Origin: Candidatus Omnitrophota bacterium
Lineage (GTDB): Bacteria > Omnitrophota > Omnitrophia > Omnitrophales > Aquincolibacteriaceae
Direction of reading: 5' to 3'
Length of the DNA: 64,000 nt
Assembly (NCBI GenBank): GCA_035368605.1
Contig: DAOSLF010000003.1
Span: 64,889-128,888, forward strand
Made by a program: the position numbers and the translations under genes
Shown: piece by piece, positions 10,172 through 57,152 of the stretch
How the letters are laid out: each line of letters begins with the position of its first letter
Position numbering within the stretch: the first letter of the stretch is position 1
Notes under the pieces: model-generated
Database searches by the model: none
Told to the model about the DNA's origin: nothing
What the model saw: the letters and a program-made list of their open reading frames with translations, nothing else

Positions 10172-11581
10172 TCAGGAAGCGGCCGATTTCCTTTCCTTCA
10201 GGATCGCGATAAAAATATCCACGATCTGCGGGTCGAACTGGGTGCCGCTGTGTTTGCGAAGCTCCGCGACCGCCGATTCCTGGCTCAGAACCTGGCGGTA
10301 AAGCCGCTTTGAAGTCATGGCATCATAGGCGTCGGCCACGGAAAGGATCCTGGCAAAGACATGGATATCCTCCCCCGCGAGTTTGTCGGGATAACCGTTC
10401 CCGTCATGGCGTTCATGGTGACCGCGGACGGCCGCAAGCATCTCGGGCCCGAGAAGGACCGGCTTCAGGATATCCTCGCCGATCATCGGATGGTTCCTGA
10501 GAAGTTCCCATTCCGCTTCGGTCAGTTTCTCTTTTTTGGAGAGGATCGCCTCATGGATGCCGAGTTTGCCGATATCATGAAGGATCGCCGTCTGTTTCAG
10601 CATCTCCAGCCGTTCGGGAGAGAAGCCGAGCCGTTTCGCGATCTCGACCGCGAATTCCGAAACCCGTTCCGAGTGACCTCTTGTGTAGGGGTCCCTGGCT
10701 TCCACGATCATCACCAGCGTCCGGATGATCCCGTAGAAATAATCCTGGTTTTTCTGATAAGCGTGCGCCAGGTCGGCCGCCATCTGGTTGAACGAGCGGG
10801 ACAATTCCGAGATCTCGTCATGCCCCGTCACCGTGATCCTGTAGCTCAGATCCCCGCCGCTCACACGCCGGATACCGTCGGAAAGCGTCCGGAGTGACGC
10901 CGTCAGCCGGGTCGAGAACCAGATCCCGAGGGGAAGGAAGATCGCCAGACCGGCCACAAAAGCCAGCAGGACGCTCGCATGAATCTTTTTCTGCATCCGG
11001 CTGATGTCCGAAGCAAGTGTGTCGACCCCCACCACGGCGACCGCTTTGCCGCTTTTGTCCCTGACCGGCGCGTAACCGGAGAGCATGGTCCCCCAATCAT
11101 CGGGCTGGACTTTTTTTTCCGCGACCGGTCCGCGAAGCGCCTCGCTGATCTCGGGAAACCGGGTCACATCGTACCGGTCACCCGGATACGCGGTCACTCC
11201 TTTCCGGTATGCCAGATACGGATCCGCGTCGACGACGAATTGCCATTCGAGAGGGTTCTCCGCCGGTTTCAGGACATAGACAAAACCGATCAAGGGATTT
11301 TCCTGCTTCAGCCTCAAAAACCGGTCAAAAAGGGCACGAAACGCGGGCGTCTCGACACCGCTCCGGTCCATCGGGATCGATGCGATCTCGTCGGCATCGA
11401 CCGAGGAGGCTATCGCGCTCGCGGTGGTCATGAGATTCTCGCGAAGTTGTTCGAATTGGGCGCGAAGAGCAATGCGCTGGACCGCGATATCGCTCGCCAC
11501 TCCCATCAGAAAGATGGCGAGGATCAACGCCAGCGTGACGCGGACGCGAAAGCTTTCAAAAAAACGTCTGAGGTTATGCAT
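10172..11581 (-). CDS. HD-GYP domain c-di-GMP phosphodiesterase with N-terminal periplasmic sensor and HAMP domain
   Basis: 469 aa with two TM segments flanking a periplasmic region and a HAMP-like linker. The HD-GYP core is HDIGKLGI ... HHERHDGNGYPDKL. Confidence 0.85.
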   Translation of the reverse strand: MHNLRRFFESFRVRVTLALILAIFLMGVASDIAVQRIALRAQFEQLRENLMTTASAIASSVDADEIASIPMDRSGVETPAFRALFDRFLRLKQENPLIGFVYVLKPAENPLEWQFVVDADPYLAYRKGVTAYPGDRYDVTRFPEISEALRGPVAEKKVQPDDWGTMLSGYAPVRDKSGKAVAVVGVDTLASDISRMQKKIHASVLLAFVAGLAIFLPLGIWFSTRLTASLRTLSDGIRRVSGGDLSYRITVTGHDEISELSRSFNQMAADLAHAYQKNQDYFYGIIRTLVMIVEARDPYTRGHSERVSEFAVEIAKRLGFSPERLEMLKQTAILHDIGKLGIHEAILSKKEKLTEAEWELLRNHPMIGEDILKPVLLGPEMLAAVRGHHERHDGNGYPDKLAGEDIHVFARILSVADAYDAMTSKRLYRQVLSQESAVAELRKHSGTQFDPQIVDIFIAILKERKSAAS

Positions 11582-11584
11582 GTC

Positions 11585-14500
11585 TTAGTGAACCATTTTC
11601 CGGTTACAAAAGTCCAGGATTTTTTGCTGCAAATCACAAATCCGTTTTTCGATACCGTCGAGAACATCAGGGGCCTGAGGAAAGTCCGTGGTCACTTCCG
11701 CGGCATTCTTGAGGTAATAGATCATGCCTGAGCGGACCGGCTCTTTCAGGATCCGGGAGACCGCGAGCGCGTAAATCCCGATCTGCAGGTCATGGCCGCT
11801 CGCTTCCGCAGACGCGCGATCTCCCGCCGCCGTTTTATAATCAAGCACATGCCAGGCGCCGTCGCTTTCACGAAACAGCGCGTCGATCTTTCCGTGGATG
11901 AGCCCCCGTCGACCGTTCAGCGTGAAATCAACCTCACGTTCAACCCGGTCGGCCTTCCGGAGACGCTTAAAAAGAGCCGAACCGAAGAACGCTTTCAAGA
12001 TTTCGCGGCCGTCCCGGATGCCGTCTTTCCCGAACGACCCGAATTCCCGGTCCAGCACGTCCTGCTCCAGATACCGATCGGGATCCGTGAGATCGATCCG
12101 TTCCAAAAGCGAATGCATGGCCGTTCCGAAATCAGAGGCCCGGTAACCCGGCCTTTCCTCTTCTTCGGCTTCTTCCGCGTCCCGGACATCCTCCCGTGTT
12201 TCCTGCCACCCGATCTGGTAGGTCCGCCAGAAGGCCTGCGGGTCTTTCGAAAAAAGAACGTAGGCCGAAACGGGCAGGTCGATGCTCCGGAGTCGCGGGG
12301 CCTCGCGCGCCGGCTCCGGCACCGGTCCGGCTTCTTGCGCCGGCCTCATGGTTTCCAGGGCCTTCCGGATCTTTTCGCGCAGATTCTCCGGTTTCTGTCC
12401 AAAAAACGGGACCGCGCGATCGGTGTCACAAGCGGCAGGGATGCCGGTCTTCCCGGCGATCGCGTCCATCCAGTCCATCCAGGTCAGCATATCGGCGTAC
12501 CGATCTTTTGGCTTTTTCCGGATCTCACGAATCCCGCTCAGGATCAGCCGGGACTTCGCACGGGTACACGCCACGTAGAAAAGCCGCTTCCGCTCCTCCT
12601 TTTCGCGAAGAATCATTTTTTCGTCCAGAATCTGATAGAAACGGGATTTTTCGGGCGCTCGCGTCAGGTCGTTCCGAAGACGGATCGCGAAACCTTCGTT
12701 TGCGTGCGCAATAATGCTCTTTGGATCCGGATTCTTTCCTTCGGAGCCCATCCCCGCGACGATCACGACGGGGAATTCCAGACCTTTCGCCGCGTGAATG
12801 GTCATCATCCGCACCGTTTCCCCGCCCTCTTCGGCCGCCACCTGCGCCTCGGACTCCCGGACCTCCTGTGTTTCAAGCCGCTCCAGCATCACCAGAAACC
12901 GCGCCAGCGGCATCCTTTCTAAAGCCTCCTGTTCCCGCACCATCGCGATCAGTTTTTTGAGGTTCGCGTAGCGGCGATTCCCGCCCCGATCCGCAAGCAC
13001 GGTCAGTTCGTAACCCGTCGCTTCAAGAATCCTGTCGATGAGTTGCGAAAGAGGCATCCGGTCCTTCAGGCTTCTCAGTTCATCCGTGAGGGAGATAAAG
13101 GAGTTCAGGCGACTCTGTTGGTCTTCCGTGATGCTGTGAATGTTACAGGCTTCTTTCAGGGCGCGGCGAAGCGGCGCCGTTTTACTTTCGGATTTCGCGC
13201 GCTTCGAAAGCCAGAAAAGAGTGCTGTCCGTTATATGGAAAAGGGGCGAGCGGAGCGCCGCCGCGAGAGGGATATCCAGGAGCGGCTTTTCGAGATGCGT
13301 GAGATAGCTCACGATGTCCCGGATTTCGGGCTGGTGATAGAAGCCGCGGCCGGACATGATGAAATACGGGATGTCGAAGACCTTCATCGCGTGTTCATAG
13401 ATTCCGCTTTGTTTCATCCCGCGGAAAAGCACCGCGATGTTCCCGTAAGGGACGCCCTCTCTTTCGCGGAGGCTCCTGATCCGCGCCGCGACCGCGATCG
13501 CCTCGCGGATCTTCGCGTGTTCTTTCCCTCCTTCATCTTCCCCGAGGTTCGTCACGAGCATCTCCACGGGCTCCGCGGGCACCGGTCCCGGCCCTTCTTC
13601 CGCCCTGGCCTCCAGCTCCTCGAAAGGGAAATCCCGGTCCTCCCTCCAAAGCTCGCGAAAGATCGCGTTTGTTTTTTCGAGGAGGCGGGCACCGCTTCTG
13701 AAGTTCTCGACAAGCGGGATTCTCACACCCGCTTTTCCGGAACGGAATTTTTCGTCGAGTTCAAGGAAGATCCGCGGCTCAGCGCCCCGAAAACCGTAGA
13801 TCGACTGTTTGTAATCCCCTACCGTGAACACATTCGATCCCGAGGAGAGAAGTCCGATAAATCGCATCTGCAGGTAATTCGTATCCTGGAACTCATCGAC
13901 CAGGATGAACTTGAACCTCCGGCGGTAGCGTTCCCGCATCTTCTGGCACGCGGGACGGGAATCCGCAAAAAGGGCGACAGCACGGCTCTGGAGATCGTCA
14001 AAATCAAGGCGGTTCTCTTCTTTCTTCGCCGCCTCATAGGTCCTCTCGAATTTAAGGGCCAGCGCTTCAAATTTCTCGGCCCACGGTTCGGCGAGCGGTT
14101 CGATCTTCACGGCCGCCAGCGCGTCCGCGAGATTGCGCCACTCTTTCCATCCGTCTTTGTGTTTGCAGGAATATTGTTTTCTCCACTCACGGAAATCACC
14201 GAGGGTCTGCCAGTCCCAAAAGGGCTGATCCTTGAAACGGACCCATGAAGCCTTGTCGAAATCGTCACCGAGTTTCGCCGCCTGCGCCTCAGCCTCGCGG
14301 AGAAGCCTTGATCCGGCTTCCTTCAAAACCGCTTCCTTTTTTTCGCGGCTCTCGGAAAAGAATTCCGTCAGCGTTCTCCCTTCATGGCGTGCGGCGGCAA
14401 ACACCTGATAGAAACCGGAACGGATGGCGTTCTCGCCGTAGACGCGCACCGCATCAAAGGAAGGATCATTGTCGCGGAAGGTCGTCTCAAGGACCCGGGT

Positions 14501-14908
14501 CGCCGCCTCATCCTGAAGAAGATCGGCCTGCTCGGATTCCAGCACCCGGAAATCGGGATCGACCCGCGCTTCGAGCGGATGCTCCTTCAAAAGCCTTGCC
14601 GCGAAAGCGTGAAACGTTCCGATCGCGGCCTGCTCGAGTTCACGGCGTATTTGCTCGAGGCCGAGATTCCGAAGTCCCGCGGAAAGTCGGGTCTTGATCT
14701 CATTGGCCGCTTTATCGGTGAAGGTAAGGATCAGCAGCTCGCCGATCCCGGCTTTGCCGTTCTTGAGGATATGGAGGATGCGTTCAACCAGGACTCTCGT
14801 TTTACCGGTCCCTGCGCCGGCTGAGACAATAAGGTCCGTGGACAGGTGTTGGACCGCTTTTTTTTGTGTCGGCGTCAGTGATATGGGTGCTAGTTTTTGA
14901 TCGTTCAT
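11585..14908 (-). CDS. addA: UvrD-like helicase with C-terminal PD-(D/E)XK nuclease; AddA-type helicase-nuclease subunit A
   Basis: 1107 aa. Walker A AGAGTGKTRVL, UvrD helicase motifs (FILVDEFQDTN, VGDYKQSIYGFRGA), and the C-terminal nuclease motif GKIDALFRE...WHVLDYKT. Confidence 0.8.
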   Translation of the reverse strand: MNDQKLAPISLTPTQKKAVQHLSTDLIVSAGAGTGKTRVLVERILHILKNGKAGIGELLILTFTDKAANEIKTRLSAGLRNLGLEQIRRELEQAAIGTFHAFAARLLKEHPLEARVDPDFRVLESEQADLLQDEAATRVLETTFRDNDPSFDAVRVYGENAIRSGFYQVFAAARHEGRTLTEFFSESREKKEAVLKEAGSRLLREAEAQAAKLGDDFDKASWVRFKDQPFWDWQTLGDFREWRKQYSCKHKDGWKEWRNLADALAAVKIEPLAEPWAEKFEALALKFERTYEAAKKEENRLDFDDLQSRAVALFADSRPACQKMRERYRRRFKFILVDEFQDTNYLQMRFIGLLSSGSNVFTVGDYKQSIYGFRGAEPRIFLELDEKFRSGKAGVRIPLVENFRSGARLLEKTNAIFRELWREDRDFPFEELEARAEEGPGPVPAEPVEMLVTNLGEDEGGKEHAKIREAIAVAARIRSLREREGVPYGNIAVLFRGMKQSGIYEHAMKVFDIPYFIMSGRGFYHQPEIRDIVSYLTHLEKPLLDIPLAAALRSPLFHITDSTLFWLSKRAKSESKTAPLRRALKEACNIHSITEDQQSRLNSFISLTDELRSLKDRMPLSQLIDRILEATGYELTVLADRGGNRRYANLKKLIAMVREQEALERMPLARFLVMLERLETQEVRESEAQVAAEEGGETVRMMTIHAAKGLEFPVVIVAGMGSEGKNPDPKSIIAHANEGFAIRLRNDLTRAPEKSRFYQILDEKMILREKEERKRLFYVACTRAKSRLILSGIREIRKKPKDRYADMLTWMDWMDAIAGKTGIPAACDTDRAVPFFGQKPENLREKIRKALETMRPAQEAGPVPEPAREAPRLRSIDLPVSAYVLFSKDPQAFWRTYQIGWQETREDVRDAEEAEEEERPGYRASDFGTAMHSLLERIDLTDPDRYLEQDVLDREFGSFGKDGIRDGREILKAFFGSALFKRLRKADRVEREVDFTLNGRRGLIHGKIDALFRESDGAWHVLDYKTAAGDRASAEASGHDLQIGIYALAVSRILKEPVRSGMIYYLKNAAEVTTDFPQAPDVLDGIEKRICDLQQKILDFCNRKMVH

Positions 14909-22025: not shown

Positions 22026-24032
22026 ATGAAAACAGCTATAATCCCTCCCATGCGGAAGATCATCCCCTATCTCATACCCGCCCTCGTCCTCACCGGCATT
22101 CTTTTCCTCCTTTATCAGTTCCCCGACCAGATCGAGGACTTCCGCATCATGGTCTTCGACAATTATCAACGCATCCGTCCCCGCATCTACAAGGACACTC
22201 CGGTCCGCATCATCGATATCGATGATAAAAGCCTCGAAAGGTTCGGTCAGTGGCCGTGGCCGCGCACGGTACTCGCCAAACTCGTCACGCGACTCTCTAA
22301 GGCCGGCGCTCAAACGATCGCCTTCGACGTCGTGTTCGCCGAACCCGATCGCACCTCACCGAAGAACGTGATCAGATCATGGCCTGACGTACCGGCCCTG
22401 CAGGCGGTGCGGTCCCAGATCGACGTGATGCCGGACCACGACCTGCTTTTCGCGGAAGCCGCGGACAAAGCCAGGGTCGTTTTCGCTTTCGGTCTGATCG
22501 CCGCGCCCGACAGGAACATCCCGGCCGTCAAATACGGTGGTTTCCTGGAACACGGTGCTCCGGGAGATCGGACCATTGATTATATCGGCCCCGCTTACAA
22601 GGGCGCGGTCACGAATATCCCCTCTCTCGAAAAAGCGGCCAGGGGCCTCGGCGGATTCAATATCAGCTCCGATGAAAAAGGGATGATCCGTCGCGCGCCC
22701 GCTCTCTTCCGTCTGAGGGACACGATCTATCCGTCGCTGTCGCTTGAGGCCATGCGGGTTTTTCAGGAGGTGAACGTGTTCAAGGTCTCGCTCGCAGGTA
22801 CGGAAACGAACGCCTCGTTCGGCGAGAAGACCGGCATCGTCTCCGTCAAAACGGGATTTCTCGACATCCCGACCGACAAACGCGGACGGATCTGGCTCTA
22901 TGACACGGGGCACCGCCCCGAGCGGTTCATCCCGGCCTGGAAGGTCTTCTCCGACGATTTTGATGCGGCATCCATCGATGGCAAGCTGCTCTTCGTCGGG
23001 ACGAGCGCGACCGGCCTGAAGGACATCCGCCCCACCCCGCTCAACACCTTCGCGCCCGGCGTCGAGGTCCACGCCCAGATCGCGGAGCAGATGTTCACGG
23101 GCGATTACCTGCGCCGTCCCGACTGGACCGAAGGCGCGGAATTCCTTTATATCTGCGTGCTCGGAATCCTCCTGATCGCGCTTCTCCCGAGCGTCGGCGC
23201 GGTATGGTGTGCTTTCCTCGGCGCCGCGGCGATCGGCTTCGCGGTATGGTATTCCTGGAAGCTGTACGTGGACGAAAACCTTTTAATCGACCCCCTCGTC
23301 CCTTCGCTTTCGATCCTCCTGATTTACCTCGTCTCCTCGTTCCTCAGGTTCCTCAAGACAGAGACCGAGCGGGGGCAGATCCGCGGTGCGTTCGCCCGTT
23401 ATCTTTCGCCCGAGCTCGTGACGCAGCTTGCGAAAAACCCGAAACAGCTGAAGCTGGGCGGCGAAACGCGTGAAATGACCTTTCTTTTTACCGATATCCG
23501 CGGATTCACCACGCTTGCGGAAGGGCTAAACGCGCAGGAGCTTACGGTCTTCATGAACTCCTTCATGACCCCCATGACGGAGATCATCCTCAAGCACAAG
23601 GGCACGATTGACAAATACATCGGGGACTGCATCATGGCGTTCTGGAACGCACCCCTCAGCGACGCGGATCACGCGAGGAACGCCTGTCACGCGGCGCTTG
23701 AAATGCGGGAATTCCTCTCGGTATTCAATGAGAGGCGGAAAAAGGAAGCGGAGGCACAGGGCAGACCCTTCCGCGAAATCAAGATCGGGATCGGGATCAA
23801 TACGGGCCTCGCGGCGGTCGGTAATATGGGTTCGGAATACCGGTTCGACTACACGGTCCTCGGAGATGAGGTGAACCTCGCATCGCGGCTGGAAGGTCTC
23901 ACGAAACAATATGAGACGACCATCATTATCGGCCCCAACACCGCGAACCGCATACCCGAACTCAAACCTCAGGAACTCGGGACCATACAAATCCGCGGCA
24001 TGACCGTTCCCAAACAGATCTTCAGCTTATAA
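22026..24032 (+). CDS. CHASE2-sensor class III adenylate/guanylate cyclase
   Basis: N-terminal TM, periplasmic CHASE2 region (RIIDIDDKSLERFGQWPWPR), a cluster of TM helices, and the cyclase core TFLFTDIRGFTTLAE ... GDCIMAFWNAP ... IGINTGLAAVGNMGS ... YTVLGDEVNLASRLE. The start was chosen at an internal Met and is uncertain (21966 or 22050 also possible). Confidence 0.85.
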   Translation: MKTAIIPPMRKIIPYLIPALVLTGILFLLYQFPDQIEDFRIMVFDNYQRIRPRIYKDTPVRIIDIDDKSLERFGQWPWPRTVLAKLVTRLSKAGAQTIAFDVVFAEPDRTSPKNVIRSWPDVPALQAVRSQIDVMPDHDLLFAEAADKARVVFAFGLIAAPDRNIPAVKYGGFLEHGAPGDRTIDYIGPAYKGAVTNIPSLEKAARGLGGFNISSDEKGMIRRAPALFRLRDTIYPSLSLEAMRVFQEVNVFKVSLAGTETNASFGEKTGIVSVKTGFLDIPTDKRGRIWLYDTGHRPERFIPAWKVFSDDFDAASIDGKLLFVGTSATGLKDIRPTPLNTFAPGVEVHAQIAEQMFTGDYLRRPDWTEGAEFLYICVLGILLIALLPSVGAVWCAFLGAAAIGFAVWYSWKLYVDENLLIDPLVPSLSILLIYLVSSFLRFLKTETERGQIRGAFARYLSPELVTQLAKNPKQLKLGGETREMTFLFTDIRGFTTLAEGLNAQELTVFMNSFMTPMTEIILKHKGTIDKYIGDCIMAFWNAPLSDADHARNACHAALEMREFLSVFNERRKKEAEAQGRPFREIKIGIGINTGLAAVGNMGSEYRFDYTVLGDEVNLASRLEGLTKQYETTIIIGPNTANRIPELKPQELGTIQIRGMTVPKQIFSL

Positions 24033-24081
24033 AAAACGGGGTCAGTCACCGTTTTAGAGAAATGGTGACTGACCCCGTTTT
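24033..24081. repeat. Palindromic repeat copy 1 (bidirectional terminator-like hairpin)
   Basis: AAAACGGGGTCAGTCACC-GTTTTAGAGAA-ATGGTGACTGACCCCGTTTTT: a 14-bp perfect stem flanked by an A-run and a T-run, sitting between convergent genes. Confidence 0.85.
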
Positions 24082-24082
24082 T

Positions 24083-25000
24083 CTAGCCGCCGGACGAGGA
24101 ATTTCCGCTGTCGCTGCCATCATCACTGCCGCGACCGGCGGCGGGCGCCCCCGGCATCACGGGCTGCGGCAATGACATCATCCCTCCCTGCGTCGCGCGG
24201 TGGCCGTATTCCTCCATTTGCGACATGAGCGACAACGTCCGGGTCATATCATCAATATCTTTAGCGGACGCCCCAAAGGTCGCAGCGTTTGGAACCGTCG
24301 CGGCATAACCGTTCGAGGAAAGATTCAGTTCGTCCATCAGCCCGTTCAGATCCGCTTCAGGAACCCGGAAAACGGGCGCCGGCGTGGTACCGGGGCCTTC
24401 AATAACGGTCCCAAAACCAATCTGCGAAATCTCCACGCCGGCCTGGGCCCCGCCTATATCATTGGACACAAAAATGCGGCCCGGCGGCGTCACGTCATCC
24501 CCCGCCGGCCCCAAAAGCACAACGAGAGAGCGGAACCCTTCCGATCTGCCCGCCACCACGGTCCCGCGGATACCGATACTTCCGGCGGGAAGGCCCACGG
24601 ACATGTTTTCCGGTTTCTTGTGTGCGATCTTCCCCGAAATAAACCGGAACACGCCCCGGAGGATATCCGTGTTCAGGATTCCGTCCTGGGTCACCGGATC
24701 ATAAGCGAAGTCATCGAGCCTGATCGCACTCGACGGACCGAGTGTAAAAACAGTTTCATCCATCAGCAAAATCTGGAGTCGCCCGTCATCTTTTGTCACC
24801 ACCTGTTCATCGAGAAATACGGGATCTCCGGCTTTCAGCTCTTTCACGGTGCCGTCCGGTGACACAGACTCCGCCGCACCGTGAACCACACCGACCACTC
24901 CGACCTGTATTTCCTGAGCCAGCACCGGGGGCATGGCAAACAGCGCCGTCAGGATAGCCACAAAAACAAAGATCTGTCCCCGTCGTTCAAGGTTTGTCAT
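24083..25000 (-). CDS. Secreted FecR-domain protein (paralogue 1) with Gly/Ser/Asp-rich C-terminal tail
   Basis: Signal peptide FVFVAILTALFAMPPVLAQE. FecR-like beta core VKELKAGDPVFLDEQVVTKDDGRLQILLMDETVFTLGPSSAIRLDDF. It is paralogous to the next gene, with long colinear identity (e.g. FRFISGKIA+KKPENMSV LPAG IGIRGT VAG). Confidence 0.7.
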   Translation of the reverse strand: MTNLERRGQIFVFVAILTALFAMPPVLAQEIQVGVVGVVHGAAESVSPDGTVKELKAGDPVFLDEQVVTKDDGRLQILLMDETVFTLGPSSAIRLDDFAYDPVTQDGILNTDILRGVFRFISGKIAHKKPENMSVGLPAGSIGIRGTVVAGRSEGFRSLVVLLGPAGDDVTPPGRIFVSNDIGGAQAGVEISQIGFGTVIEGPGTTPAPVFRVPEADLNGLMDELNLSSNGYAATVPNAATFGASAKDIDDMTRTLSLMSQMEEYGHRATQGGMMSLPQPVMPGAPAAGRGSDDGSDSGNSSSGG

Positions 25001-25096
25001 TTTTTCGCCTCTCGTATAAAAAGGCATGACCGGTTTTTCACCGGATTCGTCTTCGTGAATATTGCTCATTTGGGCCGGAACCTGGAACCAGTCTGA

Positions 25097-26029
25097 TTAT
25101 GGGGTGGTCCCGGAGCCGGTCGAATTACTACTCCCGCCGGAATACTCTTCGTGCGAAGCCGCCTGCTGTGCCGCATCATCGGCCGCGTCCTGTGCCGCGG
25201 TCCGGGACTGCTGATTCAGATAATCCAGTGCCGTCAGACCATTCATGATGGCATCAAGATCCGGTGTCTCTGAACCTGAAGGGACGTCGCCGGCCGTATC
25301 GCCTCCGAGCGTTTCCGCGGCACCATCCGACTGCCCGCCCCGGCCAACCTGCTGCCCAAGCGCGTTCGCAAGCTTCATGAGATCCTGTGGCGGCACGAGG
25401 AACGGGTCGAGCGGCGCCACATTCGGTCCCCCGATCACCGTCCCGAACCCGCTTTGGCTGATATTCACCCCGACCAGCTGGCCGTTCACCGTGTTACTCA
25501 CGTTAATCGCGCCGGAGCTCTGTCCGTTCGGTCCGCCGAGCAGAACGACCAGGGATTGCTGCCCCTGGCTTTGGCCCGCGACGAACGTCCCGCGAATCCC
25601 GATATGCCCCGCGGGGAGATCGACCGACATATTCTCGGGCTTTTTGCGGGCGATCTTCCCCGAGATGAAACGGAACGCCCCGGTCACGATATCGGCGTTC
25701 AGCTTCCCTTCGTCGGTCTTCGGGTCATAAACAAACTCGTCAAGCTTGATGCTTGAAGACGCACCGATCGTGAAAACGGTCTGATCGACAAGAAGGATCT
25801 GCATCCTTGAATCCGGGCTTGTCGTGACCGTGTCGCCCCGGAAGAGCGGATCTCCGCCTTTCAGCACACGCGTTTCACCGGCCGAAGTGGTCGCTTTCAC
25901 CTCCCCGGTAATCCCCGCCGCGACACCGATTTTCGCCGAAGTATCCGGCAAGGCCGCGACCAAGCTGCCGCAAATCAAAAACCCCGCCACGCACAAACAA
26001 GCCACCAGACTCCACGATTTGTTTTTCAT
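25097..26029 (-). CDS. Secreted FecR-domain protein (paralogue 2)
   Basis: Signal peptide SLVACLCVAGFLICGSLVAALP. FecR-like core VLKGGDPLFRGDTVTTSPDSRMQILLVDQTVFTIGASSSIKLDEF. The C-terminus is Ser/Gly-rich. Confidence 0.7.
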   Translation of the reverse strand: MKNKSWSLVACLCVAGFLICGSLVAALPDTSAKIGVAAGITGEVKATTSAGETRVLKGGDPLFRGDTVTTSPDSRMQILLVDQTVFTIGASSSIKLDEFVYDPKTDEGKLNADIVTGAFRFISGKIARKKPENMSVDLPAGHIGIRGTFVAGQSQGQQSLVVLLGGPNGQSSGAINVSNTVNGQLVGVNISQSGFGTVIGGPNVAPLDPFLVPPQDLMKLANALGQQVGRGGQSDGAAETLGGDTAGDVPSGSETPDLDAIMNGLTALDYLNQQSRTAAQDAADDAAQQAASHEEYSGGSSNSTGSGTTP

Positions 26030-27871: not shown

Positions 27872-29827
27872 GTGCCCATGGAATTCCAGCTTGATCCTTT
27901 CCAGCAGCAAGCCGTTGAGTGGATTGAAAAAGACCACTCTCTCCTCATTTCGGCCCCGACCGGTTCCGGCAAGACCCTCATCGCGGAAAAGGCCGTCGAA
28001 AAGGCCTTCGCTCAGGGGAAGGGCGTTATCTACACGGCCCCGATCAAAGCCCTGAGTAATCAGAAGTTCCGCGATTTCCAGCAGAGGTTCGGCGCGGCCA
28101 ATGTCGGCATCCTGACCGGCGACGTCGCGATCAACGCGGGCGCCCGGCTGCTCATCATGACGACCGAGATTTACCGGAACTCCCTTTTCGAGAACAGTGA
28201 GCGCATCCGGAGTACGGGTTGGGTCATTTTCGACGAGGTCCATTACCTGGATGACCACGAGCGCGGGACGGTCTGGGAGGAGGCCCTTCTTTTCACGCCG
28301 CCTGAGATCAGGATTCTCGCGCTCAGCGCGACTATTCCGAACGTGCGGGAACTTGCATCGTGGATGCAGATCGTGCATGACCGGCCGGTTGCGGTGATCG
28401 AAGAAACAAAACGGCCGGTTCCGCTCCATTTCTTCTACCAATGCCAGGGGCATTTCTTCACGAACCTGAAATCGCTGCGCAAGGACGGCTACTATTCCCG
28501 CGATAACTGGGAACTTTCCGTGCGTGAGCGGCGGCGCGGGTTCAAACAAATGCGCGCGAAACCGAACCGCCTGAGTGAACTGCTCGATCACCTGATCCGC
28601 GAGGACCGCCTCCCCGCTATTTATTTTGCCTTCAGCCGGAAACGCACGGTCTACCTCGCCTGGGAGATCGCGCACTACGACCTGCTGAACAAGGCCGAGC
28701 GCGCGAAAGTCACGGAACTCTTCGACGAACTCTGCAAAAAATACGACCTCGCGGAAGAACGCTCCGCGCAGGACATGAAACCCCTGATCGAACACGGCAT
28801 CGCCTACCACCACGCGGGCATGCTTCCAACGCTCAAGGAAGTGGTCGAACGCCTTTTCACGAGCCGCCTGATCAAGCTGATCTTCACAACCGAAACCTTC
28901 GCGCTCGGAATCAATATGCCGGCGCGAACGGTCATCTTCGACGAACTTGAAAAATTCTACGGGACGGGCTTCAAGGCCCTCACGACCCGCGATTTCTACC
29001 AGATGGCGGGTCGCGCGGGGCGACGGGGCATGGACGCGAAAGGGTTCGTCTATTGCCGCATCCTGCCGCATGACATCCCCTTCCCGCAGGTCGAGCGCAT
29101 CATTTTCGGCCATCCCGAACCCGTCCGCAGCCAGTTCAACGCCGCTTACGCGACCGTTCTCAACCTCTACCGTGATTTCGGGGAGGATCTCCTTGATGTT
29201 TATCCGAGGTCCTTCCATTATTTCCAGTCCTCGCGGCGAATGCGCGATGACGGTTTCGACCTGATCCGCAGCAAGCTGAATCTGTTAAAAGAGCTGGGAT
29301 ACATCCGCGACGGGAAACTTTCGGAAAAGGGGGAATTCGCGTCCTCAATTTTCGGCTATGAACTGTTGCTCACGGAAATGTACCAGGACAAGGTCTTCGA
29401 GAGCTTCGACGAGGCGCGGCTCAACGTATTCCTCGCGGGCCTCGTGTTTGAGCCCCGTAAAGGGCTTGATGAGCCGCCCAGGCTTTCGCATCAAAACGAA
29501 CAACTGCTCAAGGTCACCCAGCAGTACCACCGGAACATCCACAAAAAGGAGCGGGCCCACCGGATCCGCCCTTACACGAAGCCGCCGCATTTCCATCTCG
29601 CGAAGGCGATCGAGGCGTGGACACGGGGGGAAGCGTTCGACAAGGTCATGCGGGACACTTCGGAGGATGAAGGAACGCTGGTCCGTTATTTCCGGATGGT
29701 GACCCAGCTCCTGCGCGAGATCGAGCACGCGCCTCACGCCCCGGAGGCACTCCGTCAGATGGCATTGAGGGCGCGCGGGACGATCGATCGCGACGTCGTC
29801 GACGCAGAAAAACAGCTCCGGGCCTAA
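27872..29827 (+). CDS. Ski2-like superfamily-2 DEAD/DEAH-box helicase
   Basis: Walker A APTGSGKT, DEVH box (VIFDEVHYL), SAT motif (LSATIPN), and motif VI QMAGRAGRRG. Confidence 0.8.
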   Translation: MPMEFQLDPFQQQAVEWIEKDHSLLISAPTGSGKTLIAEKAVEKAFAQGKGVIYTAPIKALSNQKFRDFQQRFGAANVGILTGDVAINAGARLLIMTTEIYRNSLFENSERIRSTGWVIFDEVHYLDDHERGTVWEEALLFTPPEIRILALSATIPNVRELASWMQIVHDRPVAVIEETKRPVPLHFFYQCQGHFFTNLKSLRKDGYYSRDNWELSVRERRRGFKQMRAKPNRLSELLDHLIREDRLPAIYFAFSRKRTVYLAWEIAHYDLLNKAERAKVTELFDELCKKYDLAEERSAQDMKPLIEHGIAYHHAGMLPTLKEVVERLFTSRLIKLIFTTETFALGINMPARTVIFDELEKFYGTGFKALTTRDFYQMAGRAGRRGMDAKGFVYCRILPHDIPFPQVERIIFGHPEPVRSQFNAAYATVLNLYRDFGEDLLDVYPRSFHYFQSSRRMRDDGFDLIRSKLNLLKELGYIRDGKLSEKGEFASSIFGYELLLTEMYQDKVFESFDEARLNVFLAGLVFEPRKGLDEPPRLSHQNEQLLKVTQQYHRNIHKKERAHRIRPYTKPPHFHLAKAIEAWTRGEAFDKVMRDTSEDEGTLVRYFRMVTQLLREIEHAPHAPEALRQMALRARGTIDRDVVDAEKQLRA

Positions 29828-29875
29828 AAACGGGGTCAGTCACCATTTCCCTAAAATGGTGACTGACCCCGTTTC
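29826..29875. repeat. Palindromic repeat copy 2
   Basis: AAAACGGGGTCAGTCACC-ATTTCCCTAAAA-TGGTGACTGACCCCGTTT, between the convergent helicase gene and addB. Confidence 0.85.
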
Positions 29876-32800
29876 TTGTCTTCCTCGAGAATCTCCTGCA
29901 AGATAACGGGCAGACGCCACTTTTCGATCCGGCAGAGGGCGGGATAAGGACAGAATTTTTCGCAGTCCCGCGGACGGACAAGAATCTTCAGGTCCTTGAT
30001 CTCCACCGTGAACCGTTTCACGAACTCGACGGTCCGCGCGAGGACATGGCGGAAATCCGCGTCTTCGAGAAGCGCCACCTTGCTTGAAATACCGAGACTG
30101 AATTTCCCGGCCGACTCCTTACGGTAAAATCCGCTCCGCGAACCTTCCTTCAACGAATAGAGCTCGCCGCCCACGGGTTCCAGCTTGAGAAGTTCTTCCA
30201 CCGCCAACACATAGAGCGGCAGTTGCAGCGAGGTGCCGATCGCGAGGGCCTCGCGGTCCAGTTTCGCCGTTCGCTTGTAATCCACGACCAGGCCCGCCTT
30301 CCCTTCCCCATCCGTGTCGATCCGATCGATTCGGCCCCGAATCCGGATTTCCTTTTCGCCGTCCCGGATCCGGAACGCCGGAGACCGGTAGTCCTTTCCC
30401 GTCCCGAAACCGTATTCGACATACGCCGGACGGAGTTGGCGGACCGAAAGTTTCTCGATCTCCTTTTCGAGGACCGAAAGGAGCATCTCCTTCACGTCGG
30501 CCCGGTCCAGATCCTCCCGGAATTTCTGTTCCGCCGTGAGGGGGTATCTCTGAAAAGCCTCTTTCAGTTTTTCCTCGACAAACTTTTCAGGCGCCGCGTG
30601 GTGATTTCCCGTCCGGATGAAGTCTCGGAAATATTCCTCGAGCACCCAATGCAGGATGTTCCCCTTCTGCCGGGAAGTAATGTCTTCCGTCGGGTCCTGG
30701 AGATTGAGGATGTGATGCGCGAAATAACGGTAAGGACATTTCGCGAATTCCTCGAGGCGGGTCGGGCTGGCCTCTCCGACATCAAAAAAACCGCCGTTCC
30801 GGATTCCGGGGTCCCCGATCACGGCCTCGATGGGGGTGATCGCCCGCAGGAGCTTGTCGAGAGGAACGCGCGCGGGCGGACCTTCCGCGGGAATCTTGCC
30901 GCCGGACTCAACGCGCTCGCGTAACTCTCCGAGAAAAGCGACCTCGCGTTCGCGGCCCGTGATCGCCTCCTCCGCCCCGGGATAGGGCCTCGCGAGCTTC
31001 TGCTTCACGACGGGGACCTTCCCGTCAAAAAGCCTCTGGACCTCCTCGAGATAAAAGGACCGGAGCGATTCCTTGCCTTCGAGGTCGATGTGAGGGTACG
31101 AGAAATAAAGGCGCTCGCTCGCCCGCGTCACGGCGAGGTAGAAAAGATATCGCTCAAGACTCTGCCGGGGCAGGCGTTCCTGCAACGGGTGTTCGAGCCC
31201 TGCGTTCATGATCGCGCGTTCCCAGTCCGAAAGAAGCGGATCCTCGCGAATCTGCACGGGAAAAACCCGCTCGAGCATCCCGGCCACGAAAACAACTCGG
31301 TATTCTTTTTGACGAGCAAGCGACACGTCGTAGATCTGGACCCGGTTCTTGTCGCGCTCGTGGAGTGAATACACATCGAGTTCGACAAGCCCGAGGAACT
31401 GATCGGCGAAGGAATCGAACAAAACGGCGTGCGCGCCGACTCTGGAGGCGTTCATCCGGATCTCTTCAAGCAGTGTCGTGAAACGCCGCGCGGCCGAGGC
31501 GTCGCTCCGCGTGAACGGCGTGTAATCGTCCGAGATTTCGAGGATGCCGAAGGTGTGGCCGACCGCGTGCGTGAGAAGACGGATATGATCGGCCGCGGTT
31601 TCCGCCGCGAGAAAAGCGGCCTCTAGCTCAAGCAGGACCCCGAGGAATTTGTCCTTGCCCGCCCCTCCGTTCTCCGCAAGCGCCGTCTCATTAACCCAGG
31701 GGGCTGTCCACGCTTCGCGGCCTTCGAGGACACCGTTCTCGAAGCTCCCCGCCTCGAATTTCGAGAGCCAGTCGTTGTCCCTCGCGAGATCGCCGAATTT
31801 CCGCACGTATCCGGATTTGACGAACGCGAGAACATCCTCCCGTCTCCAACCGTTCCGGAATATCGAAAGAAGCGCCGCCACCGCACCGATCCAGGGCGAG
31901 AGCTTGAGGCGGTCGCGTTCATGGACCTCGACCGGAATCCCGTAGCGTTCGAAGATCGGGGGAACAACCCGTCCGTAATCGCGGACCTGACGAAACAGCA
32001 CCGCGAAATCGCTGTAACGGTAGTTCCCCGACGCGTAAAGCCCGTGGATCTCGCGTGCGATCAGCTCGATCTCGCCTTCGATTCCGACTGCATCAAGAAA
32101 AGTGATCCCCTCCGGGGGTCTGGCTCCGTTGCGGTCCCCTGAAATGGTGCCTGACCCCGTTTTTATATTTTGGCCGAACAGATTCCGCTGAAGATGTAAA
32201 AGCGCCGGTTCCCTCGTCCGGTGACAAACGGGTTTCATCTTTTCCACCTTGAAACCGGCTTCCTCGAGCATCGCACGGGTGGAACGGATGGTCTCGAAAG
32301 CGTCCTCACGAACCGGGCCCTCTTCCGCCGTCAGTGTCACGATCATCTCATCCGACAGGGCGGCGAGTGCCCGGACATATTCGGCCTGGAGGTTGGAGAA
32401 ATCGAAAAAGCCATCGAGCCAGAGCGCTTTGAACCGGACCGGCGGCTGCCCGCCTTTGCGGGTCCGCTCCCGCCAGATCCGGAGCGTGTCCTGGAGATCC
32501 CTGAGACCGCGCTCCTTCAGCTCCGACTCATATCCTTCATAGACCGCGGCAAGCGCCTCGTATTTGGGGCCGAAGGCTGGTTCATATTTTTTGAGGGCGT
32601 TCATCCTCTCGCGGAATTCCGCGGGCGTCACGCAGGCTTCCTTGAGCTCCGAAATCCCGCCCAGGAGAAGTCCGACGAATCCCGGCAGGTCTTTCACGTC
32701 CCGAAAATATTCCCAGTCGTTCTTGCCGAGGAGATCGCGGACGATAATGGCCCGCGTAAGGCTTGAAACGACCGGAATCTCCGGGACCCGGAAGACATCG

Positions 32801-33021
32801 GTGATAAGGCGGGAAAGGGTCGTGACGCGTTTATGAAAAAAACCCGGAAGTCCCCGCTGGATGAGGAGTGAAACCACCCGTTCGGTGTGCTCGGCAGAGG
32901 GGACGATCAGGAAAGTGTCGGGCTCGAGCGGATTCGACGTCCGGAGGCTTTTTTCGAAGGCCTCCAGCAACGCGCGGGTCTTCCCGCATCCCGCCGGGCC
33001 GATCAGGAGAGTCTTCGTCAT
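29851..33021 (-). CDS. addB: AddB-type helicase-nuclease subunit B (inactive-helicase/PD-(D/E)XK nuclease, Fe-S)
   Basis: 1056 aa. N-terminal Walker A GPAGCGKT, C-terminal nuclease motif VVDYKRT, and a Cys cluster (CPYRYF ... CEKFCPYPALC) as in AddB Fe-S staples. Confidence 0.7.
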   Translation of the reverse strand: MTKTLLIGPAGCGKTRALLEAFEKSLRTSNPLEPDTFLIVPSAEHTERVVSLLIQRGLPGFFHKRVTTLSRLITDVFRVPEIPVVSSLTRAIIVRDLLGKNDWEYFRDVKDLPGFVGLLLGGISELKEACVTPAEFRERMNALKKYEPAFGPKYEALAAVYEGYESELKERGLRDLQDTLRIWRERTRKGGQPPVRFKALWLDGFFDFSNLQAEYVRALAALSDEMIVTLTAEEGPVREDAFETIRSTRAMLEEAGFKVEKMKPVCHRTREPALLHLQRNLFGQNIKTGSGTISGDRNGARPPEGITFLDAVGIEGEIELIAREIHGLYASGNYRYSDFAVLFRQVRDYGRVVPPIFERYGIPVEVHERDRLKLSPWIGAVAALLSIFRNGWRREDVLAFVKSGYVRKFGDLARDNDWLSKFEAGSFENGVLEGREAWTAPWVNETALAENGGAGKDKFLGVLLELEAAFLAAETAADHIRLLTHAVGHTFGILEISDDYTPFTRSDASAARRFTTLLEEIRMNASRVGAHAVLFDSFADQFLGLVELDVYSLHERDKNRVQIYDVSLARQKEYRVVFVAGMLERVFPVQIREDPLLSDWERAIMNAGLEHPLQERLPRQSLERYLFYLAVTRASERLYFSYPHIDLEGKESLRSFYLEEVQRLFDGKVPVVKQKLARPYPGAEEAITGREREVAFLGELRERVESGGKIPAEGPPARVPLDKLLRAITPIEAVIGDPGIRNGGFFDVGEASPTRLEEFAKCPYRYFAHHILNLQDPTEDITSRQKGNILHWVLEEYFRDFIRTGNHHAAPEKFVEEKLKEAFQRYPLTAEQKFREDLDRADVKEMLLSVLEKEIEKLSVRQLRPAYVEYGFGTGKDYRSPAFRIRDGEKEIRIRGRIDRIDTDGEGKAGLVVDYKRTAKLDREALAIGTSLQLPLYVLAVEELLKLEPVGGELYSLKEGSRSGFYRKESAGKFSLGISSKVALLEDADFRHVLARTVEFVKRFTVEIKDLKILVRPRDCEKFCPYPALCRIEKWRLPVILQEILEEDKKRGQSPF
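32111..32166. repeat. Diverged copy of the palindromic repeat, embedded in frame inside addB
   Basis: CGGGGGTCTGGCTCC-GTTGCGGTCCCCTGAAA-TGGTGCCTGACCCCGTTTT aligns to the intergenic repeat. The right arm has 1 mismatch; the left arm has 3 mismatches and 1 indel. It encodes the AddB segment NIKTGSGTISGDRNGARPPEG. Confidence 0.6.
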
Positions 33022-43866: not shown

Positions 43867-43915
43867 AAAACGGGGTCAGTCACCATTTCCCTAAAACGGT
43901 GACTGACCCCGTTTT
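43867..43915. repeat. Palindromic repeat copy 3
   Basis: AAAACGGGGTCAGTCACC-ATTTCCCTAAAA-CGGTGACTGACCCCGTTTTT, immediately downstream of the era stop codon. Confidence 0.85.
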
Positions 43916-44838
43916 TACCCGCGGATTTTCCGGAGGAAGGAGGTGTTCTCCTTCCAGCCGGCCATGACCTTGACCCAAAGTTCAAGGAACACCTTCCGCC
44001 CGATCAGTTTCTCGATCTCAAGACGCGCGGTACGGCCAATCTCGCGGATCTTCAGACCTCCTTTACCGATCACGATCGCCTTCTGCGAGTCGCGGCTTAC
44101 GATGATCGTCGCGCTGATACGGGTGATTTTCTCCTCGTCCCTGTAACTATCGATCCGCACCGTCGCGTCATACGGCAGTTCGTCTTCGAGCTCGTGATAG
44201 AGCTTTTCACGAATCAGCTCCTGCGCGTGGAATCGCTCGTTCTGGTCGGAGATCTGATCCTCGGGATAAATAAATTCGCCTTCCGGAAGGCAATCGAGCG
44301 TTTTCCGGATCAGGGTGTCGATATTCTCCCCCGTCGCCGCGCTGATCGGAATGAACTCCCTGAAAGGATACACCTTTTGATAGGAATCGATCGTCGGGAG
44401 AATCTGAAGCTTGGGGAACTTGTCGATCTGATTCACGAGCAGGAAGACCGGTTTCTGACAGCCCTTGAACCAGCCAAGCATCCGCTCCTCCGTTTCCCCG
44501 ATCTCGCGAGGATAGACCATCCAGTAAAGGACATCCGCGTCATCAAGGGAATGACGCACGTCGTGGACCATTTCCTCCCCAAGCTTGTCGTGCGGCTGAT
44601 GGACCCCCGGCGTGTCGAGAAACACAATCTGCCCCCGGCAGGAACTGCCGACCTTTTTCCCGTTCGTTACGGTCAGAATCCCGCGGATGACATCGCGCGT
44701 TGTCTGCGGTTTCGGAGAAATACCCGCGAGTTTTTCGCCGACGAGGTAATTCAAAAGTGTGGACTTGCCGACGTTCGGCCGGCCGACGATGGCCACATAC
44801 CCGGCCTTGGTCTTAGGCTGGTTCTTCGTTTTTTCCAT
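43915..44838 (-). CDS. era: GTPase Era
   Basis: G1 GRPNVGKST, G3 DTPG, G4 NQID, and a C-terminal KH domain (IVSRDSQKAIVIGKGG). Confidence 0.9.
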   Translation of the reverse strand: MEKTKNQPKTKAGYVAIVGRPNVGKSTLLNYLVGEKLAGISPKPQTTRDVIRGILTVTNGKKVGSSCRGQIVFLDTPGVHQPHDKLGEEMVHDVRHSLDDADVLYWMVYPREIGETEERMLGWFKGCQKPVFLLVNQIDKFPKLQILPTIDSYQKVYPFREFIPISAATGENIDTLIRKTLDCLPEGEFIYPEDQISDQNERFHAQELIREKLYHELEDELPYDATVRIDSYRDEEKITRISATIIVSRDSQKAIVIGKGGLKIREIGRTARLEIEKLIGRKVFLELWVKVMAGWKENTSFLRKIRG

Positions 44839-55717: not shown

Positions 55718-55757
55718 TTCGGACCTTATCCAACCTCGCAGGTTGGATACGGGTACC

Positions 55758-57152
<1,395 letters not shown>

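What the first reader, a model, noticed from the sequence alone, without database searches (positions are those of the whole stretch)
32111..32166. Diverged copy of the palindromic repeat inserted in frame inside the addB-like gene
Within the 1056-aa AddB-type ORF, positions 32111-32166 read CGGGGGTCTGGCTCC-GTTGCGGTCCCCTGAAA-TGGTGCCTGACCCCGTTTT. This aligns arm-loop-arm with the intergenic repeat; the right arm has 1 mismatch. It is translated in frame as ...NIKTGSGTISGDRNGARPPEG..., a Gly/Ser-rich low-complexity linker about 290 aa from the N-terminus, and the reading frame is preserved. Apparently this is a protein-coding gene that has tolerated in-frame insertion of a mobile palindromic element, as described for Rickettsia RPEs and Neisseria Correia elements. 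The region has decayed relative to the intergenic copies, which is consistent with selection on the peptide rather than the hairpin.
Basis: partly seen in the sequence, partly recalled or inferred. Interest (0 to 1): 0.7.

Follow-up and report, generated by a model that had tools for sequence, protein, structure and literature searches.

The report
Palindromic repeat inside AddB linker
A 51-base hairpin-forming repeat, of a kind that normally sits between genes, is read in frame as 17 extra amino acids in a floppy surface linker of the DNA-repair protein AddB of an uncultured Omnitrophota bacterium. Related bacteria carry other, unrelated hairpin repeats at the very same spot.

Summary
Window 32115-32165 holds a 51-nt (17-codon) palindromic element inside a full-length addB gene (29851-33021, minus strand). 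One arm plus loop edge matches the window's three intergenic palindromes 24/25 to 26/29.

It is the exact variant arm GGAGCCAGACCCC. That arm pairs with GGGGTCAGGCACC, with two A.A mismatches, in intergenic hairpins of Planctomycetota, Verrucomicrobiota, Actinomycetota, Bordetella and soil metagenomes.

The insert lies in the coil between the first and second helicase-like domains of AddB (model pLDDT below 50). The linker is 23 aa against a median of 14 in 103 orthologues. Every near-identical strain has the insert; the closest other lineages (57-64% identity) do not.

On the mRNA strand the hairpin is weak and has no U-tract. The intact intergenic copies look like bidirectional terminators.

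New here: 9 of 10 orthologue DNAs examined (seven picked for long linkers) carry a strong palindrome in this linker, from at least six unrelated sequence families. A second loop (aa 185-195) is also hit repeatedly.

In-frame palindromic insertions are a known kind (Rickettsia RPEs). This family, its host phylum and the recurrent AddB site are not described in the literature I could search.

The parts
32115..32165 (-). 51-nt (17-codon) palindromic element inside addB. Coding strand: TAAAAAC-GGGGTCAGGCACC-ATTTCAGGGGACCGCAAC-GGAGCCAGACCCC. It encodes (I)KTGSGTISGDRNGARP.
32146..32165 (+). Unit A arm GGTGCCTGACCCC plus its GTTTTTA flank (an A-run on the coding strand). This is the near-perfect half of the element.
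   Evidence: It matches the arms of the intergenic copies 24/25 (I9). Together with the loop edge 32137-32145 it matches the 43867 copy 26/29. It is an exact match to the unit pattern.
32128..32145 (-). 18-nt loop, longer than the 5-13 nt of intact copies. It is stop-free in the addB frame and its inner stem is largely lost.
32115..32127 (-). Unit B arm GGAGCCAGACCCC, the heterotypic partner. It gives two A.A mismatches with unit A and avoids the in-frame TGA that a perfect arm would create.
   Evidence: exact core match. (same arm in L037, L055, L074, L078, L113, L132, L145, L165). (reading frames).
32107..32175 (-). Codons 283-305, the inter-domain linker of AddB. It is 23 aa here; the median is 14 and the minimum 11 in 103 orthologues.
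   Evidence: AlphaFold model: coil, pLDDT below 50 at residues 289-298. Residues 283-293 align to a gap in B. subtilis AddB 3U44_B.
29851..33021 (-). addB gene, 1056 aa: ADDB_N, UvrD_C and PD-(D/E)XK nuclease domains with the C-terminal cysteines.
   Evidence: Best structural match is AddB chain B of 3U44 (E=2.7e-46).
29826..29877 (.). Intact palindrome (T/A stem variant) between the convergent DEAD/DSHCT helicase gene and addB. It supplies the helicase's TAA stop, and addB's last 7 codons (KRGQSPF) plus its stop.
   Evidence: (-40.1 kcal/mol, z -10.6).
24032..24082 (.). Intact palindrome filling the gap between the convergent CHASE2-cyclase and FecR genes. Terminator-like on both strands.
43867..43916 (.). 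Intact palindrome directly after the stop of the Era GTPase gene (minus strand).

Best explanation
A short, non-autonomous, REP-like palindromic repeat became part of the addB coding sequence in the lineage of this Omnitrophota species, and it has been kept because it is harmless there.

The repeat's intact intergenic copies have the anatomy of bidirectional Rho-independent terminators: an A-run, an 18-22 bp G+C-rich stem, and a T-run.

The addB copy is a heterotypic pair, unit A GGTGCCTGACCCC opposite unit B GGAGCCAGACCCC. Four properties make it tolerable:
1. It is 51 nt, so the frame is kept.
2. In the frame used it has no stop codon. That holds only because the second arm is unit B (GGA GCC AGA, where a perfect arm would read GGT GCC TGA) and because the loop is stop-free.
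3. It lands in the disordered linker between the 1A-like and 2A-like helicase domains of AddB. That linker varies freely in length among orthologues.
4. On the mRNA strand the hairpin is weak and is not followed by a U-tract, so it should not terminate addB transcription.

Shown: the homology to the repeat family, the in-frame reading, the lineage specificity, the linker location, and the weak sense-strand hairpin.

Inferred: that it arrived by insertion (about 8 native linker residues must also have been lost), that the peptide is functionally neutral, and how it was mobilised (no transposase was found).
For: - Homology. Exact heterotypic arms also occur in intergenic elements of other phyla.
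- Dispersed family: the unit occurs singly, as inverted pairs and in tandem arrays in 98 metagenome loci, next to 138 different Pfam families.
- Lineage specificity: the insert is present in all seven cluster members that span the linker (over 99% identical, from NCBI, JGI, ENA and Logan assemblies). It is absent from orthologues at 57-64% identity.
- The window's intergenic copies are absent from the same syntenic junctions in L121, L221, L222, L223 and L226.
- Linker length is 23 aa against a median of 14.
- The linker is disordered: pLDDT below 50 at residues 289-298, coil 281-305. Residues 283-293 are an insertion relative to B. subtilis AddB, and the fold matches AddB.
- Hairpin energies: mRNA strand -19.5 kcal/mol, z -1.0. 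Intact copies -33 to -40 kcal/mol, z -9 to -11.
- Frame analysis.
- The gene looks functional: all domains and invariant residues are present. Against a second strain there are 8 synonymous and 5 non-synonymous codon differences.
Against: - No target-site duplication or clear insertion boundary can be defined. Subtracting 17 codons leaves a 6-aa linker, shorter than in any orthologue (minimum 11), so a simple insertion is not the whole story.
- No orthologue closer than 64% identity lacks the element, so there is no clean empty site.
- No other G/C-type heterotypic copy was seen in this genome's 64 kb. The three intergenic copies are the T/A type.
- No transposase is associated with the units.
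- Recurrent palindromes at the same linker in other lineages may mean the site is selected for a hairpin rather than merely tolerant.
- Expression was not testable.
Confidence: 0.8

Rival explanations
1. The hairpin at this position is selected for a function of its own, and the peptide is a by-product. On the plus (antisense) strand the element is still a good terminator: -27.2 kcal/mol followed by GTTTTTATATTTT. It could stop antisense transcription through addB. More generally, a hairpin at the domain boundary could modulate addB expression or translation.
For: - Nine of 10 orthologue DNAs examined have a strong palindrome in the same linker, from at least six unrelated sequence families. 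Several are perfect: 15/15 in L120 and 20/20 in loop 2 of L220.
- In about 130 kb flanking those addB genes, all other strong hairpins are intergenic.
- The plus-strand fold has z = -3.9 and a T-run follows it.
Against: - Seven of the 10 orthologues were picked because their linkers were long. Most orthologues have a 14-aa linker (54 of 103; about 80% are 16 aa or shorter) that shows no repeat-like peptide.
- L121 has no palindrome.
- In the window's own copy the mRNA-strand hairpin is not better than shuffles.
- A second strain carries a two-base change inside the arm, CCC to CTA.
- No expression data are available.
Confidence: 0.15
2. Chance resemblance: a Gly/Ser-rich linker that happens to look like the repeat.
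For: Against the window's own copies the second arm alone is only marginal (12/16, P=0.027).
Against: - The 24/25 to 26/29 match of the first half.
- 7 hits against 0.03 expected for the unit pattern.
- The exact 13/13 match of the second arm to the recurrent partner arm.
- L132 shares TAAAAACGGGGTCAGGCACCATTT (24/24) and GGAGCCAGACCCC (13/13).
Confidence: 0.01
3. The element is ancient in AddB. It was inserted once in an ancestor and is shared by descent with the copy in the P0060 orthologue, having been lost or overwritten elsewhere.
For: The L221 (P0060) linker carries AAAGGTGCCAGGCACCGTTTTCTGCGAAAAAGGAGCCAAACCCC. It is in the same orientation and the same reading frame (GGC ACC = GT; GGA GCC ARA CCC = GA(R/K)P), and the loops differ by 3 nt.
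Against: - P0060 is only 50% identical to the window's AddB. All closer orthologues (P0002-P0006, 57-64%) lack the element.
- L222 has the same family in a different frame.
- The first arm still matches current intergenic copies 24/25, which argues for a young copy.
Confidence: 0.04

Closest known systems
Rickettsia palindromic elements (RPE; Ogata et al. 2000, as summarised in PMC10969869)
   Same: A palindromic repeat inserted in frame into housekeeping genes. It adds a peptide at a site compatible with the protein fold, and the host gene stays intact.
   Different: RPEs are about 100-150 bp, restricted to Rickettsia, and encode a family-specific conserved peptide. This element is 51 nt and is built from 13-nt arms shared across phyla. 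Most of its copies are intergenic.
REP / BIME / REPIN elements of Proteobacteria
   Same: - A short unit (about 21 nt) that is itself an imperfect palindrome.
- It occurs singly, as inverted pairs that form long hairpins, and in tandem clusters.
- Heterotypic pairs carry fixed mismatches, like Y/Z REP units.
- It is mostly extragenic, at gene ends, next to unrelated genes.
   Different: - No RAYT (Y1 transposase) was found in the window or beside 136 neighbouring ORFs.
- There is no GTAG-type 5' motif.
- The same arms occur in several phyla, whereas REPs are usually species-specific.
- REPs are by definition extragenic, and this copy is translated.
[quoted passage not shown]
   Same: A dispersed repeat whose copies have the anatomy of intrinsic terminators. 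The window's intact copies sit at the 3' ends of convergent or tandem genes, with A- and T-runs on either side.
   Different: The sequence, the host and the bidirectional symmetry all differ. I could not establish from the held text whether in-frame SPRITE copies have been described.
Correia elements (CREE) of Neisseria
   Same: A small non-autonomous palindromic repeat that can affect transcription and is occasionally found inside ORFs.
   Different: Correia elements are 100-155 bp, with 26-bp terminal inverted repeats, a TA target duplication and an IHF site. None of these is seen here.

Membership tests
AddB (helicase-nuclease subunit B of AddAB) - the host gene | ADDB_N helicase-like N-terminal domain with a Walker A motif, a UvrD_C-like 2A domain, and a C-terminal PD-(D/E)XK nuclease with an Fe-S cysteine cluster | tested here: met
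   - Pfam ADDB_N 1.5e-26, UvrD_C 1.1e-10, PDDEXK_1 1.3e-36.
- Invariant G8, P9, G13, K14, T15 and C762, C1024, C1030, with C1020 nearly invariant.
- PDB 3U44_B by sequence, E=3.8e-35, and by fold, E=2.7e-46.
The window's palindromic repeat family | Two inverted 13-nt arms GGWGMCWGACCCC around a short loop, with an AAAC/GTTT flank | tested here: met
   Both arms are exact matches to the core. The flank is present on the unit A side only, as in other heterotypic copies.
REP / REPIN | A short palindromic unit that occurs singly, in inverted doublets and in clusters, mainly extragenic and in many copies | tested here: met
   98 metagenome loci hold singles with covarying outer stems, inverted doublets and tandem arrays. 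The window holds 4 copies in 64 kb.
REP / REPIN | Association with a RAYT (REP-associated tyrosine transposase) gene flanked by units | tested here: not met
   No transposase appears among the 25 most-matched Pfam families listed for 52 window ORFs (54 families matched in all). None recurs among 136 ORFs next to units. A RAYT elsewhere in the genome cannot be excluded.
Rickettsia palindromic elements | A 100-150 bp element of one of the RPE families, in Rickettsia, encoding the family's conserved peptide | tested here: not met
   The length is 51 nt and the host is Omnitrophota. Sequence comparison with RPEs was not run.
Correia / MITE | Terminal inverted repeats with a target-site duplication (TA for Correia) | tested here: not met
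   The flanks of the four window copies and of L132 and L149 show no consistent direct duplication (read by eye).
Intrinsic (Rho-independent) terminator | A G+C-rich hairpin directly followed by a U-tract on the transcribed strand | tested here: not met
   - For the addB copy on the mRNA strand: -19.5 kcal/mol, z -1.0, followed by CCGGAGGGG, and not picked up by the terminator scan.
- The feature is met by two intact copies, 24036-24078 and 29828-29874, in that scan.
- It is met by the plus (antisense) strand of the addB copy, judged by eye and by fold.

The most novel reading that the evidence does not exclude
The AddB inter-domain linker (and a second loop at aa 185-195) is a genuine hotspot or a selected site for hairpin-forming repeats across Omnitrophota. 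Unrelated palindromes have repeatedly entered the same two loops of one protein, while neighbouring genes stay free of them.

This would imply either a structure- or A-tract-directed insertion mechanism, or a hairpin-dependent function inside addB such as antisense termination or expression control.

In addition, the 13-nt arms GGGGTCAGGCACC / GGAGCCAGACCCC, with their fixed A.A mismatches, are conserved from Omnitrophota to Planctomycetota, Verrucomicrobiota, Actinomycetota, Firmicutes and Bordetella. That would point to an undescribed, broadly distributed protein that recognises or mobilises this hairpin.
Probability: 0.25. Interest if true: 0.75.

Novelty: new member of a known kind. Interest (0 to 1): 0.55.

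Why it matters
It gives a clean, checkable example outside Rickettsia of a protein gaining sequence from a selfish or terminator-like hairpin repeat, in a candidate phylum known only from metagenomes.

It also shows which properties let such an insert survive: length a multiple of three, a stop-free arm variant, a disordered linker, and a disabled sense-strand terminator.

The repeated, independent capture of different palindromes by the same AddB linker offers a natural experiment on insertion-site preference against tolerance.

There is a practical point for annotation. Peptide motifs such as KTGSGT, KRGQAPF, KVPDP and KGSDPF in PVC-group proteins mark translated repeats, not conserved domains.

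Tried and rejected
1. The genome-contig scan used a 16-mer arm. It wasted the only scan of that collection, although 7 loci turned out to hold real hairpins with the same stem.
2. Rfam at E<=1 on ten loci with the unit gave no relevant family.
3. A literature search for the 13-mers found only an unrelated synthetic oligonucleotide. 'Omnitrophota' plus 'palindromic' found nothing relevant.
4. I looked for a mobilising enzyme. Pfam scans of 52 window ORFs and of 136 ORFs next to units showed no enriched family and no transposase.
5. IMG/VR scans for both element types gave no hits, so there is no sign of phage carriage.
6. I tried to orient the heterotypic elements relative to flanking genes with crude ORF calls in high-GC contigs. 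The result was unreliable and I dropped it.
7. A TA or other target-site duplication is not consistent among copies.
8. I considered a pseudogene or an assembly artefact. I rejected both: the same 1056-aa ORF, with the insert, occurs in six full-length cluster members from JGI, ENA, NCBI and Logan assemblies.
Full report
**What is at the coordinates**

Window 31900-32400 contains the quoted sequence. It lies inside a 1056-aa ORF on the minus strand, 29851-33021. The ORF has Pfam ADDB_N (residues 6-277), UvrD_C and PD-(D/E)XK nuclease (751-1031) domains. Its homologues are annotated as AddB / PD-(D/E)XK nuclease of Candidatus Omnitrophota. An identical protein is NCBI HOE68377.1, from an Omnitrophota MAG. 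On the coding strand the segment reads AAT ATA AAA ACG GGG TCA GGC ACC ATT TCA GGG GAC CGC AAC GGA GCC AGA CCC CCG GAG GGG, which is N I K T G S G T I S G D R N G A R P P E G.

**The repeat family in the window**

Three intact palindromes lie at 24032-24082, 29826-29877 and 43867-43916. The consensus is TAAAAACGGGGTCAGTCACC-ATTTCCCTAAAAT-GGTGACTGACCCCGTTTTTA. They fold at -33 to -40 kcal/mol, with z-scores of -9 to -11.

They sit at gene ends:
- between the convergent CHASE2-cyclase and FecR genes;
- between the convergent DEAD/DSHCT helicase gene and addB;
- directly after the Era gene.

A-runs and T-runs flank each of them. The terminator scan picks up two of them (the third lay outside the scanned range). 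I read them as bidirectional intrinsic terminators. That reading rests on anatomy, not on a test.

**Is the addB copy more than chance?**

The plus-strand right half (32137-32165) matches the intergenic copies 24/25 to 26/29, including the asymmetric loop edge and the TTTTTA flank. The 21-nt unit pattern finds 7 sites in the window against 0.03 expected.

The left arm is weak against the window's own copies: 12/16, P=0.027. It is better against the complement of its own partner: 13/16, P=0.0046.

The decisive evidence came from outside the window. A metagenome scan with the unit returned 98 loci. In L132, L145 and L165 an intergenic element just upstream of a dnaG-like gene (N-terminus MAGRIPQSFIDD; named from memory, not tested) reads TAAAAACGGGGTCAGGCACCATTT...GGAGCCAGACCCC. 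That is 24/24 and 13/13 identical to the two arms of the addB copy on its coding strand.

The same heterotypic pair, GGGGTCAGGCACC / GGAGCCAGACCCC with two A.A mismatches, occurs in Planctomycetota (L037, L074, L113), Thermoleophilia (L055), Bordetella petrii (L078) and, with one change, Opitutia (L038). It is the commonest imperfect partner among all the units I fetched. In those copies the unit B side usually lacks the GTTT flank, as it does in addB.

So the arms of the addB copy are not decayed. The copy is a near-complete member of a subfamily different from the window's intergenic T/A type. The core GGWGMCWGACCCC hits exactly the eight arms of the four elements in 64 kb. That core was defined after seeing the arm.

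**What is degraded**

The loop is 18 nt, against 5-13 nt in intact copies, and its inner stem is mostly lost. On the mRNA strand the fold is -19.5 kcal/mol (z -1.0) and no U-tract follows. On the plus strand it is -27.2 kcal/mol (z -3.9) and GTTTTTATATTTT follows.

A second strain (L227, 99.63% identical over 8.9 kb) differs in addB at 13 codons, 8 synonymous and 5 non-synonymous. One of these is a two-base change, CCC to CTA (P302L), inside arm B.

**Reading frames**

The window's T/A-type element is open in only one of three frames in each orientation. The frame used in addB (KTGSGTIS...) is closed by TGA in homotypic copies. In addB it is open only because the second arm is unit B (GGA GCC AGA, where a perfect arm would read GGT GCC TGA) and because the loop carries no stop.

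**Lineage specificity and position in the protein**

All seven members of the over-99%-identity cluster that span the linker (six full-length, one partial; JGI, ENA, NCBI and Logan assemblies) carry the insert. The next relatives are 57-64% identical and do not.

The segment lies between the conserved LQKNLF helix and the (I/V)xxLDAxGxEGE strand. In 103 orthologues this linker has a median of 14 aa and a minimum of 11; here it is 23. Subtracting 17 codons would leave 6 aa, so about 8 native residues must have been lost or replaced. The event was therefore not a simple insertion, and I found no target duplication.

Against B. subtilis AddB (3U44_B, E=3.8e-35), residues 283-293 align to a gap just before the first strand of the second helicase-like domain. 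An AlphaFold model built from 60 sequences has mean pLDDT 83.9. It shows coil at 281-305, and residues 289-298 are among the six stretches with pLDDT below 50. The model's best PDB match is AddB.

**Synteny**

The gene order PTPS, addB, then the convergent helicase, then FecR and CHASE2-cyclase, is conserved in L120, L121 and L221-L226. None of those loci has the window's element at the corresponding junctions. Two have other palindromes there: L220 6431-6477 and L223 18681-18719. The intergenic copies are therefore lineage-specific gains, which is indirect evidence of mobility or turnover.

**Recurrent palindromes in the same linker**

The linker DNA of the closest other orthologues was examined first.
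- L120 (P0003) holds a perfect 15-bp-arm palindrome, CACCAACCCGACACC-C-GGTGTCGGGTTGGTG.
- L121 (P0002) has none.

Seven further orthologues were chosen because their linkers are long. All have strong hairpins there:
- L220: GGGGTCTGACCC...GGGGTCAGACCCC.
- L221: GGTGCCAGGCACC...GGAGCCAAACCCC. This is the same family, orientation and frame as the window.
- L222: two elements, one of them GGGGACAGGCACC...GGAGCCAGTCCCC, in another frame.
- L223 and L225: a GCGCAACG-type palindrome.
- L224: a CCCTCACCC/CCTCTCCCC type.
- L226: an AACACCCGGTGTT type, which also occurs at a second site in the L120 addB.

A second loop, at aa 185-195 (native sequence RERKKKxxxP, A-rich DNA), is hit in P0028, P0047, P0015 and P0055. 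P0028 (L220 3726-3772) has a perfect 20-bp-arm copy of the GGGGTCAGGCACC family there.

In the roughly 130 kb flanking these addB genes, every other strong hairpin is intergenic. The sampling is biased towards long linkers, and 54 of 103 orthologues have the plain 14-aa linker. Even so, at least six unrelated palindrome families have converged on the same two loops of one protein. I rate this the most interesting result.

My preferred reading is tolerance. These are the protein's two freely variable loops, and both are encoded by A/T-run-containing DNA that resembles the element ends. I cannot exclude a true insertion hotspot or a hairpin function.

**The family at large**

The roughly 21-nt unit AAACGG-TGCCTGAC-CCCGTTT occurs in three arrangements:
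- singly, with outer stems that covary (for example L206, L211, L212);
- as inverted doublets;
- in tandem arrays (L175, L182, L202, L211).

Its neighbours are unrelated housekeeping genes: 138 Pfam families among 136 ORFs, none in more than two, and no transposase. There is no Rfam family, no hit in viral contigs and no paper containing the sequence.

In organisation it is REP/BIME/REPIN-like. The RAYT association that defines REPINs was not found, so I do not file it there.

**Comparison with known cases**

In-frame palindromic repeats are well known from Rickettsia RPEs and occur for ERIC elements and some MITEs. Terminator-like dispersed repeats are known as SPRITE (PMC10969869; see also PMC3184786 and PMC5896051). 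This element works like an RPE in being translated inside a housekeeping gene at a permissive site. It is not a member of that family: it is 51 nt against 100-150, and the host and sequence differ. It is not a Correia element either.

**Verdict**

- The kind is known; this family, this phylum and the recurrent AddB site are new.

Noticed in passing
window 29826-29877, 24027-24085, 43915-43917: The intact palindromes supply stop codons and coding sequence to their neighbours. The TAA stops of the DEAD/DSHCT helicase gene (29825-29827), the CHASE2-cyclase gene (24030-24032) and the Era gene (43915-43917) lie in the element's TAAAAA end. AddB's last seven codons and stop (KRGQSPF*) are the arm and loop of the 29826-29877 copy, whereas orthologue P0002 ends ...ARAVGQGN*. 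So addB contains repeat-derived sequence at two places.
   Followed up: partly
L120 1824-1854 and 3090-3126; L220 3726-3772 and 4060-4100; L221 3977-4041; L222 ~10930-11113; L223 10851-10928; L224, L225 and L226 linkers: AddB orthologues of other Omnitrophota carry in-frame palindromes of at least six unrelated sequence families. They lie in the same inter-domain linker and in a second loop (aa 185-195). Several are perfect palindromes.
   Followed up: yes
L122-L219 (metagenome); L005, L037, L038, L055, L074, L078, L090, L113 (genomes): The 13-nt arms GGGGTCAGGCACC / GGTGCCTGACCCC, and the variant partner GGAGCCAGACCCC with two fixed A.A mismatches, occur in hairpins of Planctomycetota, Verrucomicrobiota, Actinomycetota, Firmicutes (Lachnospiraceae, Herbinix), Bordetella petrii and many soil contigs. 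They appear as singles with covarying outer stems, as doublets and as tandem arrays. There is no Rfam family, no paper, no associated transposase and no viral hit.
   Followed up: partly
window 3743-3769 and 55724-55752: Two nearly identical small hairpins, ATCCAACCTCG(T/C)AGGTTGGAT, with similar downstream sequence. One lies inside the QueA gene and encodes TDPTYEVGSG, in a loop that is longer than in Thermotoga QueA but similar in length to B. subtilis QueA. The other is near the start of ORF 55623-57134, probably in non-coding DNA. This may be another small repeat family with an in-frame copy.
   Followed up: partly
L227 (strain variant) against window 32115-32127: One of only 13 codon differences between two strains' addB genes is a two-base change, CCC to CTA (P302L), inside arm B of the element. 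It removes two G-C pairs of the hairpin.
   Followed up: yes
L220 6431-6477; L223 18681-18719: At the syntenic convergent junctions (addB/helicase and FecR-neighbour/CHASE2-cyclase), other lineages have different A-run/T-run-flanked palindromes: AAAAGGGGTCACGCC... and AAAAGGGGACAGGCAGTCA.... This suggests turnover of terminator-like hairpins at fixed positions.
   Followed up: no
window 24548-24724 and 25574-25750: A 177-nt direct repeat at 72% identity lies within the two adjacent minus-strand ORFs 24083-25069 (Pfam FecR) and 25097-26029 (not scanned). They look like tandem paralogues, and the syntenic loci also have tandem FecR genes.
   Followed up: no
window 11588-14908 (minus strand): One window ORF has UvrD-helicase and UvrD_C domains. 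It is probably the 1106-aa ORF at 11588-14908 and may be the AddA partner. If so, addA and addB are about 15 kb apart rather than in one operon. Which ORF gave the hit was not verified.
   Followed up: no
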